IMG/VR virus record: IMGVR_UViG_3300037424_000485
Span: 64,001 to 128,000 of that record
Source: a virus
Lineage: Duplodnaviria > Caudoviricetes
Length of the DNA stretch: 64,000 nucleotides
Direction: 5' to 3' (one strand)
Shown: piece by piece, positions 54,592 through 55,005 of the stretch
Position numbering within the stretch: position 1 is the first letter of the stretch
Layout of the letters: every line of letters begins with the position of its first letter
Made by a program: the position numbers and the translations under genes
The notes under the pieces: generated by a model
What the model was told of the DNA's origin: nothing
The model's database searches: none
The model's input: only the letters and a program-made list of their open reading frames with translations

Positions 54592-54654
54592 GACTAACCA
54601 GCGGGTAAACGCGGAACCGCAAAAAGCGCGGAGCCGGTTAACTCCACGTTGGCC
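54592..54654 (+). repeat. attC-like site D
   Basis: GACTAAC-CAGCG-GGTAAAC-GCGGAACCGC AAAAA GCGCGGAGCC-GGTTAAC-TCCAC-GTTGGCC. Confidence 0.7.
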
Positions 54655-54656
54655 CG

Positions 54657-54887
54657 CTAGGCGTACTGCACGCCGATATTAAGATGGCAAATTAAATTAA
54701 AAACCTTCCCACATTCACCGCATGTATGGTCAAAAACGCCATCTGTTTTGCCCCGGCCATCGTCAGTACCCCAAATTGTCACAGAAACATCAACATCATC
54801 AATCTCGACATATTCACCACATCCAGGGCATATAACCTCAATAGGATTTTGAAGCCTGTTCATCTCACCCATAATAATTGTCCTCAT
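54657..54887 (-). CDS. Zn-ribbon protein in a cassette between attC-like sites D and E
   Basis: CPGC...CGEC; stop lies 3 nt from site D. Confidence 0.65.
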   Translation of the reverse strand: MRTIIMGEMNRLQNPIEVICPGCGEYVEIDDVDVSVTIWGTDDGRGKTDGVFDHTCGECGKVFNLICHLNIGVQYA

Positions 54888-54911
54888 AAATAGTAGTTAA
54901 TCGTTGCCGCT

Positions 54912-55005
54912 GCCCAACAAGTCGCTCCACACGGAACGCGGGAAGCTCCGTTTTTGGTTTATCTGCTACTCCCCGGGCCGCGTCCGGTGAGCTAAAACGG
55001 TGTGT
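54912..55005 (+). repeat. attC-like site E
   Basis: GCCCAAC-AAGTC-GCTCCAC...CCGCGTCC-GGTGAGC-TAAAAC-GGTGTGT; right core degenerate (GGT). Confidence 0.7.

What the first reader, a model, noticed from the sequence alone, without database searches (positions are those of the whole stretch)
54592..55005. Two tandem attC-like sites bracket an antisense ORF (integrase-less mini array)
Seen: sites D and E have AAC/GTT cores, 5-6 nt spacers, inner arms with an extra base (GCTCCAC vs GTGAGC) and GC-rich palindromic centres. The left core of E (GCTGCCCAAC) is 8/10 complementary to the right core of D (GTTGGCCCGC), as expected for one cassette. The 76-aa ORF lies on the strand opposite the canonical attC top strand. 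Inference: a cassette unit of about 350 bp. Here, at site F and around site A the ORFs run antisense to attC, unlike typical bacterial cassettes, which suggests a phage-adapted cassette pool.
Basis: partly seen in the sequence, partly recalled or inferred. Interest (0 to 1): 0.75.

Follow-up and report, generated by a model that had tools for sequence, protein, structure and literature searches.

The report
Two integron attC sites in phage
A large uncultured T4-like phage carries two genuine integron-type recombination hairpins (attC sites), of a kind otherwise found in gene-cassette arrays of sediment and groundwater Betaproteobacteria, bracketing a small foreign zinc-ribbon gene; this is a rare but already described way for phages to pick up genes.

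Summary
Sites D (54592-54654, +) and E (54912-55005, +) have the attC layout: R''-5 nt-L'' with bulged bases, then L'-5/6 nt-R'.

- A covariance model built from 19 real class 1 attCs ranks E first in the 204-kb genome (23.5 bits); D is at background (11.3 bits).
- The 22 bases at D's 3' end recur in more than 180 public contigs. These are cassette arrays, mostly in Betaproteobacteria, and all five such genomes checked encode an integron integrase.
- A second model, built from 124 of those bacterial attCs without D or E, finds only E (38.3 bits, E=8e-7) and D (28.1 bits, E=2e-4) in the phage. The next hit scores 9.7 bits.
- Published phage attCs score 25-51 bits with that model.

This is therefore a two-site CALIN with a 351-bp cassette (54649-54999) holding a 71-aa zinc-ribbon gene antisense to attC. 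It looks like a relic: the record has no tyrosine recombinase, E reads GGT where GTT is required, and D's left arm is degraded. D also works as a terminator ahead of a sigma70-like promoter. CALINs in virulent phages were described in 2023.

The parts
54592..54654 (+). attC site D (63 nt): R'' GACTAAC 54592-54598, 5-nt spacer, L'' arm with bulges, L' CCGGTTAAC 54634-54642, spacer TCCAC, R' GTTGGCC 54648-54654 (crossover G54648|T54649). The left arm is degraded relative to its family.
   Evidence: Class 1 model 11.3 bits; bacterial-array model 28.1 bits, E=2e-4. It aligns end to end with 63-nt attCs from bacterial arrays and viral contigs, with 30-32 of 41 bases identical outside the 22-mer used to find them.
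54912..55005 (+). attC site E (94 nt): R'' GCCCAAC 54912-54918, spacer AAGTC, L'' GCTC[C]AC..., L' CCGGTGAGC 54984-54992, spacer TAAAAC, then G54999 followed by GT instead of TT (R' = GGTGTGT).
   Evidence: Best hit of the whole 204-kb genome with the class 1 model (23.5 bits, E about 0.002). 38.3 bits, E=8e-7 with the bacterial-array model, which was built without it.
54649..54999 (+). Cassette unit of 351 bp: from TT of D's R' to G of E's R'. Its first bases TTGGCC would pair with E's R'' (6 of 7 positions) in a circular cassette.
   Evidence: Coordinates from the covariance-model alignments and direct reading.
54657..54872 (-). Cargo gene: 71-aa four-cysteine zinc-ribbon protein (the ORF is open from 54887, 76 aa), antisense to the attC top strand.
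   Evidence: It belongs to a family of 68-78-aa proteins with conserved CPxC...CxxC. Homologues lie in phage replication or early modules.
54617..54648 (-). Terminator-like hairpin plus T5 tract on the coding strand, 9 nt after the stop codon. It is formed by the 3' half and centre of attC D.
   Evidence: Consensus scan.
54507..54535 (-). Sigma70-like promoter TTGACT-17-TATATT with an AT-rich upstream tract, driving the next gene. Together with D it forms a PeSL-like terminator/promoter unit.
   Evidence: The segment 54498-54561/74 occurs at about 90% identity in other sediment contigs with different flanks.
54233..54454 (-). Second foreign gene (73 aa, no family) between the left island border and attC D.
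   Evidence: 68-95% identical homologues in phage-like contigs of 40-46% GC. DNA homology to L011 covers only 54215-54498.
54215..54999 (.). Foreign GC-rich block (45-54% GC against 32% for the genome) lying in the 5-kb gap of the split polB gene. Left border ctaG54214|TTTTC, right border AAAACG54999|GTGTG.

Best explanation
D and E are genuine integron attC sites of a family that populates chromosomal cassette arrays of Betaproteobacteria-type bacteria from sediment and groundwater. Together they form a two-site cluster without integrase (a CALIN) inside a hyperplastic region of a T4-like jumbo phage, namely the gap of its split DNA polymerase gene.

The unit T54649-G54999 has the exact form of one cassette carrying a small zinc-ribbon gene in inverted orientation.

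The sites are probably no longer recombinogenic. The record has no tyrosine recombinase, E has GGT where the crossover triplet GTT belongs, and D's 5' arm has accumulated changes. Today they act mainly as transcription punctuation: D forms a hairpin plus T5 terminator on the coding strand, ahead of a sigma70-type promoter.

Shown: family membership, architecture, uniqueness in the genome and foreign composition.

Inferred: the cassette(s) entered phage DNA during infection of an integron-bearing host. This happened either through host IntI acting at a secondary (attG-like) site, which I put at about even odds because similarity to the family consensus stops exactly at the crossover G of E, or through ordinary illegitimate recombination with attC-bearing DNA.
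For: 1. Class 1 attC model (19 real attCs; covariation verified). E scores 23.5 bits and is the top hit of the window and the genome, where the next best hit scores 15.5. Apart from the reverse strands of real attC sites (up to 19.9 bits), nothing in about 120 kb of GC-rich plasmid DNA exceeds 14 bits.
2. The same model recovers published phage CALINs: TJE1 at 27-39 bits, PH101 at 25-41 and MW202573 at 22-29.
3. D's 3' 22-mer occurs in 6 IMG/VR contigs, more than 120 metagenome contigs and 64 species genomes, mostly Betaproteobacteria.
4. The 72 of these loci that were scanned (all genome and IMG/VR loci plus two metagenome contigs) hold 219 attC hits in array spacing, and about 48 of their motif sites are themselves full-length attC hits.
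5. All 5 such genomes checked encode an integron integrase above the TIGR02249 cut-off.
6. D aligns end to end with 63-nt members, with 30-32 of 41 bases identical outside the motif.
7. A model from 124 bacterial array attCs, without D or E, gives E 38.3 bits (E=8e-7) and D 28.1 bits (E=2e-4); the next window hit is 9.7. It finds nothing else in the phage genome.
8. Both sites lie on the same strand, 257 nt apart, in the most GC-rich island of the genome.
9. The record has no tyrosine recombinase.
10. Terminator and promoter scan.
Against: - E lacks the invariant GTT.
- The predicted probability of the attC fold is low: E 0.18 (top strand) and 0.04 (bottom strand); D 0.005 and 0.0001. Real sites have a median of about 0.4.
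- The cargo is antisense, which is the minority state in bacterial arrays of this family (5 of 43 clear cases).
- Both cargo genes belong to families seen in phage-like contigs without attC.
- The gene next to D has its own AT-rich promoter and mosaic breakpoints of the PeSL type, so this unit is not a clean cassette.
- No empty-site relative or excised form was found.
- The loci used for the second model were reached through D's own 22-mer, so D's 3' half is partly circular evidence. E's score and D's 5' two-thirds are not.
Confidence: 0.82

Rival explanations
1. The sites belong to an active, phage-adapted cassette system. In this view phages keep attC sites in inverted orientation as portable terminator-plus-recombination modules, so that host integrases shuffle phage early genes.
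For: - Cargo is antisense both here and in the published CALIN of MW202573, whose 3670-3738 site belongs to the same attC family as D.
- In inverted orientation D reads as a hairpin plus T5 terminator.
- IMG/VR contigs carry 5-19 attCs of this family.
- A 370-bp insert 2.6 kb away is polymorphic in the same samples.
Against: - There are only two phage cases.
- There is no integrase, E's crossover triplet is mutated and D's arm is degraded.
- No variant lacking the cassette appeared in two samples.
- Homologues of both cargo genes lack attC neighbours.
- The other 'sites' in this phage score at background.
- The IMG/VR contigs may be bacterial arrays misfiled as viral; this was not examined.
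Confidence: 0.1
2. D and E are ordinary transcription terminators or regulatory hairpins (PeSL-type terminator/promoter modules of T4-like phages, or REP-like hairpins) that resemble attC by chance.
For: - D contains a terminator-like hairpin followed by an AT-rich tract and a sigma70-type promoter, which is the PeSL layout (PMC2839356, PMC4122927).
- Homology breakpoints at 54498 (between the -10 element and the ATG) and at 54561/74 (between the AT-rich tract and the stem-loop) match reported PeSL crossover points.
- Folding z-scores are unremarkable.
- A simple rule-based attC scan gives about 4 loci per 204 kb.
Against: - Scores of 38.3 and 28.1 bits against 9.7 for the next hit.
- End-to-end alignment of D with attCs from integron-bearing bacteria.
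- D and E are unique in the genome, whereas PeSLs are repeated homologous motifs.
- E has no T-run and no nearby strong promoter.
Confidence: 0.05
3. The sites are ends of another hairpin-dependent single-strand mobile element (of the IS200/IS605 PATE type), or form a structured 5' UTR or 3' UTR RNA of the zinc-ribbon gene.
For: - Two different imperfect hairpins flank a small gene.
- Some pairs are G-U only on the coding-strand RNA.
Against: - No Rfam family matches.
- There is no transposase.
- The hairpins match attC models in full length and orientation.
Confidence: 0.03

Closest known systems
[quoted passage not shown] 2023, Front Microbiol, PMC9892861)
   Same: - At least two attC sites within 3-4 kb, no integrase, small cargo genes, and a lytic-type phage.
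- My models score those published sites (22-51 bits) in the same range as D and E.
- The MW202573 site at 3670-3738 shares 19 of 22 bases with D's 3' end and also has antisense ORFs.
   Different: - Here the host genome is a 204-kb T4-like phage and the array sits in the gap of a split polB gene.
- One site has a mutated crossover triplet and the other a degraded arm.
- The cargo genes belong to phage-typical families.
Chromosomal integron attC family of Betaproteobacteria-type bacteria (Thiobacillus, Gallionella, Rhodocyclales, Burkholderiales)
   Same: - The same 63-nt architecture and sequence...CGGAC..GCAAAAGCGCGGAGCCGGTTAACTCCACGTTRG...
- The arrays have spacing of about 400-900 bp, and IntI is present in those genomes.
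   Different: - In bacteria the arrays are long (up to 19 sites per locus) and cargo is mostly co-oriented.
- Here there are only two sites, no integrase and antisense cargo.
SALINs and attG insertion of cassettes outside integrons (Loot et al., bioRxiv 10.1101/2022.09.11.507474)
   Same: - Isolated cassette(s) in a genome without att sites or integrase.
- The left border is G|TT.
- Similarity of E to the family consensus ends exactly at the crossover G.
   Different: - The right junction reads G|GT rather than the conserved GWT.
- There is no empty site to compare.
- The target is a phage, not a bacterial chromosome.
PeSL terminator/promoter cassettes of T4-type phages (Arbiol et al. 2010, PMC2839356; Comeau et al. 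2014, PMC4122927)
   Same: - Stem-loop terminator, AT-rich tract and sigma70 promoter in front of an ORFan in a hyperplastic region.
[quoted passage not shown]
   Different: - PeSLs are repeated, mutually homologous motifs exchanged by homologous recombination.
- D and E are single-copy, unlike each other in sequence, and homologous to bacterial attCs.

Membership tests
integron attC site | Inverse core R'' (RYYYAAC) and core R' (GTTRRRY) that can pair | tested here: inconclusive
   D: GACTAAC / GTTGGCC, 6/7 matches to each consensus, and 6/7 positions pair. E: R'' GCCCAAC matches 7/7, but R' is GGTGTGT, so the invariant second T is a G; 5/7 positions pair. Met for D; for E the crossover triplet is not met.
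integron attC site | L''/L' stem with extrahelical base(s) on the 5' arm of the top strand, and unpaired spacers of 5 nt and 5-6 nt | tested here: met
   In the covariance-model alignments E pairs 9/9 and D 8/9 in the L box. Bulges lie at the canonical position after 3 bp. Spacers are 5/6 nt (E) and 5/5 nt (D).
integron attC site | Significant score with an attC covariance model, in one orientation only | tested here: met
   Class 1 model: E 23.5 bits, D 11.3 bits. Bacterial-array model: E 38.3, D 28.1, next hit 9.7. No hit on the opposite strand. IntegronFinder's own model was not available.
integron attC site | Homology to sites in bona fide cassette arrays of integrase-bearing genomes | tested here: met
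integron attC site | Bottom strand folds into the recombinogenic hairpin with appreciable probability | tested here: inconclusive
   Fold probability for the bottom strand is 0.04 for E and 0.0001 for D. The 15 real sites range from 0.003 to 0.93.
integron attC site | Recombined by an integron integrase | not testable with these tools
   Needs an attC x attI assay.
CALIN (cluster of attC sites lacking integrase) | At least two attC sites within 4 kb and no integron integrase nearby | tested here: met
   Two sites lie 257 nt apart. PF00589 gives no match in the 204-kb record, which is estimated 85% complete.
integron gene cassette | Promoterless ORF co-oriented with, and followed by, its attC | tested here: not met
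   The ORF lies on the opposite strand. This is a minority state in bacterial arrays of the family.
PeSL (T4-type promoter-early stem-loop) | Stem-loop terminator plus AT-rich tract plus sigma70 promoter before an ORFan | tested here: met
   Met by D together with the promoter at 54507-54535.
PeSL (T4-type promoter-early stem-loop) | Repeated, mutually homologous copies across the hyperplastic regions of the genome | tested here: not met
   No second copy of D, E or the promoter tract exists in the genome.

The most novel reading that the evidence does not exclude
Phages that infect integron-bearing bacteria keep attC sites in inverted orientation as dual-purpose modules. Each acts as a terminator on the coding strand and as a handle for the host's integrase, so early accessory genes are exchanged as antisense cassettes between phages and bacterial arrays. 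The attC family would then also name the host clade, here a Betaproteobacteria-type bacterium.
Probability: 0.12. Interest if true: 0.75.

Novelty: new member of a known kind. Interest (0 to 1): 0.5.

Why it matters
- It adds a clear case of integron recombination sites in a lytic-type jumbo T4-like phage. The sites trace to a specific bacterial attC family, which supports phage-integron gene traffic and gives a sequence-based clue to the donor or host clade.
- It shows that a class 1-trained attC model can miss real sites: D scored only 11 bits. Short conserved attC ends can be used to recover their families from public data.
- The antisense cargo, shared with one published phage CALIN of the same family, is a testable oddity.

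Tried and rejected
- Rfam scan of the window: nothing.
- Megablast and blastn of the island against phage records: nothing.
- Generic RNA and DNA folding against shuffles: uninformative.
- Pairwise D-versus-E local alignment: not above shuffles, with 1150 of 2000 shuffles scoring as high.
- Pattern built from E's two arms: no hit in the viral, metagenome or genome collections.
- Close relatives of the phage lacking the island: none found with the polB C part or with the neighbouring gene.
- Contig laying: no variant at D or E. One run's contigs left 54010-54410 uncovered, which says nothing.
- Polaribacter phage P12002L: my class 1 model finds no site there although one was functional in the published assay, so a low score with that model is not evidence against an attC.
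- PeSL as the sole explanation: rejected because D and E are single-copy and homologous to bacterial attCs.
- IS200/IS605-type ends and a riboswitch-like leader: considered and rejected, as there is no supporting feature.
- Treating the 73-aa gene plus D as a clean cassette: not supported. Its reconstituted R' (GTTTTCA) pairs poorly with D's R'', and its breakpoints are of the PeSL type.

Full report
**Context.** The window is part of a 204,431-bp virus record with 32% GC. It is a distant T4-like phage. Its family B DNA polymerase is split into an N part (58896-60752, minus strand) and a C part (53047-53871, minus strand), about 5 kb apart. The finding lies in that gap, inside the most GC-rich island of the whole genome (54155-55134, up to 54% GC).

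All genes here run on the minus strand:
- a native-looking 86-aa gene (55044-55304);
- the 76/71-aa zinc-ribbon gene (54657-54887/54872);
- a 73-aa gene (54233-54454);
- a 61-aa lipoprotein-like gene (53974-54159).

**Observation.**
- D reads GACTAAC-CAGCG-...-CCGGTTAAC-TCCAC-GTTGGCC.
- E reads GCCCAAC-AAGTC-GCTC[C]AC[A]CGGA[A]CGCGG...CCGCGTCCGGTGAGC-TAAAAC-GGTGTGT.
- E's left core is 8/10 complementary to D's right core.
- The unit from T54649 to G54999 is 351 bp.

Generic tests did not single the sites out. Folding z-scores ranged from -1.9 to +0.4. D and E have no other copy in the genome. D-versus-E similarity is not above shuffles.

**First attC test.** I collected 19 real attC sites from class 1 integrons on plasmids and aligned them. 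I verified the R-box and L-box pairing and its covariation, then built a covariance model from the alignment.

| Target | Score with the class 1 model |
|---|---|
| Trained and untrained real attCs | 36-77 bits |
| Reverse strand of a real attC | up to 19.9 bits |
| Other sequence in about 120 kb of GC-rich plasmid DNA | at most 14 bits |
| Site E | 23.5 bits (E about 0.002), best hit in the phage |
| Site D | 11.3 bits, background level |
| Rest of the phage genome | at most 15.5 bits |
| Published phage attCs: TJE1 | 27-39 bits |
| Published phage attCs: PH101 | 25-41 bits |
| Published phage attCs: MW202573 | 22-29 bits |
| Polaribacter phage P12002L | nothing found, although one of its sites was functional in the published assay |

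E is therefore in the range of accepted phage attCs, and a low score with this model does not exclude an attC.

**Decisive step.** Printing the published phage sites showed that the MW202573 site at 3670-3738 ends ...CGCCGGTTAGC-TCCAC-GTTAGGC, against D's ...GAGCCGGTTAAC-TCCAC-GTTGGCC.

The genomes are mostly Thiobacillus, Gallionella, Sideroxyarcus, Rhodocyclales and Burkholderiales.
- I scanned 72 of these loci (all genome and IMG/VR loci plus two metagenome contigs), and they are cassette arrays. The class 1 model finds 219 sites at E<=0.01 in 500 kb, in runs with spacing of about 400-900 bp. About 48 of the motif sites are themselves full-length hits in the expected orientation.
- All five of these genomes that I checked encode an integron integrase well above the TIGR02249 cut-off. 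None of the 14 control genomes does.
- D aligns end to end with 63-nt members such as L235, L051 and L054. Its right half is identical to theirs up to the GTT of R', and 30-32 of the 41 bases outside the search motif are identical. The differences cluster in D's 5' arm.

**Second attC test.** A model built from 124 attCs of those bacterial arrays, with D and E not included, finds exactly two sites in the window: E at 38.3 bits (E=8e-7) and D at 28.1 bits (E=2e-4). The next hit scores 9.7 bits.

The model finds nothing else in the phage genome and nothing in the contigs that carry homologues of the two cargo genes. It scores published phage attCs at 24.6-50.7 bits.

E played no part in finding the training loci, so its rise from 23.5 to 38.3 bits is independent evidence. 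For D, the 22-mer is partly circular evidence, but the remaining two-thirds of the site is not.

**What it is.** This is a two-site CALIN.

Similarity of E to the family consensus (…CCggUUAgCUucaACG|UUAGgc) stops at G54999, the crossover position, where E continues GTGTGT. That is what a cassette recombined into a non-att target would look like. However, GGT departs from the GWT rule reported for attG sites, and a point mutation explains it equally well.

The left edge of the foreign block is ctaG54214|TTTTC, where homology to the metagenome contig L011 begins.

**State and present function.**
- The record has no tyrosine recombinase.
- E lacks the cleavage triplet.
- D's L box has a mismatch and altered bulges.
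- The predicted probability of the attC fold is low: E 0.18 (top strand) and 0.04 (bottom strand); D 0.005 and 0.0001. Real sites have a median of about 0.4.

I read this as a relic. On the coding strand, D forms a 9-bp hairpin followed by T5, 9 nt after the stop codon. It is followed by an AT-rich tract and TTGACT-17-TATATT. This is the layout of the PeSL terminator/promoter modules of T4-type phages.

Mosaic breakpoints at 54498 and at 54561/74, seen against L011 and against contigs of another sediment sample, match the PeSL crossover points described. The unit formed by the 73-aa gene and D has therefore been remodelled by phage-type recombination and is not a clean cassette.

**Cargo.**
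- The zinc-ribbon protein belongs to a family of 68-78-aa proteins with conserved CPxC...CxxC. Members sit beside PolA, beside an SNF2 helicase, and in a Mu-like early region.
- The 73-aa protein has 68-95% identical relatives in runs of small genes on phage-like contigs.
- None of these contigs carries an attC.
- In bacterial arrays of this attC family, cargo is mostly co-oriented with attC (38 same, 5 antisense, 17 unclear by a crude longest-ORF test).
- The antisense arrangement recurs in MW202573. That is suggestive, but it is only one further case.

**Novelty.** Integron components in phages, including 17 CALINs among 10,705 genomes and IntI1-recombinable attCs from virulent phages, were published in 2023. 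Isolated cassettes and attG insertion are also described. This is a new member of a known kind. Three points are particular to it:
- its position in a split polB gap of a T4-like jumbo phage;
- the traceable betaproteobacterial attC family;
- the antisense, phage-type cargo.

The scan had flagged this same stretch once more in an overlapping window.

Noticed in passing
window 57602-57971 (site F): A form of the phage lacking these 370 bp coexists with the full form in two sediment runs. The joint runs from 57601 to 57972, and the insert is flanked by the 5-base repeat TGTTA. The empty site TAACAGCTTGTTA is an inverted AAC/GTT repeat. The insert's 106-aa gene occurs at about 85% identity in other contexts. 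Neither attC model finds a site inside the insert, so an integron-type origin is not supported by my tests.
   Followed up: partly
window 54498-54574: The AT-rich promoter segment upstream of the 73-aa gene occurs at about 90% identity on other sediment contigs with different flanks. The gene itself (54223-54485) occurs at 96.6% identity on another contig. These look like PeSL-like modular exchange among phages of these sediments.
   Followed up: partly
IMG/VR contigs behind L051, L052, L054, L055 (handles G006, G007, G009, G010): Contigs filed as viral carry 19, 13, 11 and 5 attC sites of the same family. G007 is rated 100% complete and has sites at both ends, as if one array spans the junction of a circle. 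Whether these are phages with large arrays or bacterial integrons misfiled as viral was not examined.
   Followed up: no
window 53047-53871 and 58896-60752: The family B DNA polymerase is split into two genes about 5 kb apart. The gap is filled with small accessory genes, an HNH gene and the foreign inserts.
   Followed up: partly
window 3039-8612, 19482-22573, 58392-58899: At least six diverged copies of an HNH-type endonuclease gene family (73-88% DNA identity over 100-300 nt) are scattered through the window.
   Followed up: no
phage record MW202573, 2069-3738: In this published phage CALIN, all four attC top strands lie on the strand opposite to the annotated ORFs, as in the present phage. 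The source paper remarks only on multiple ORFs between its sites.
   Followed up: partly
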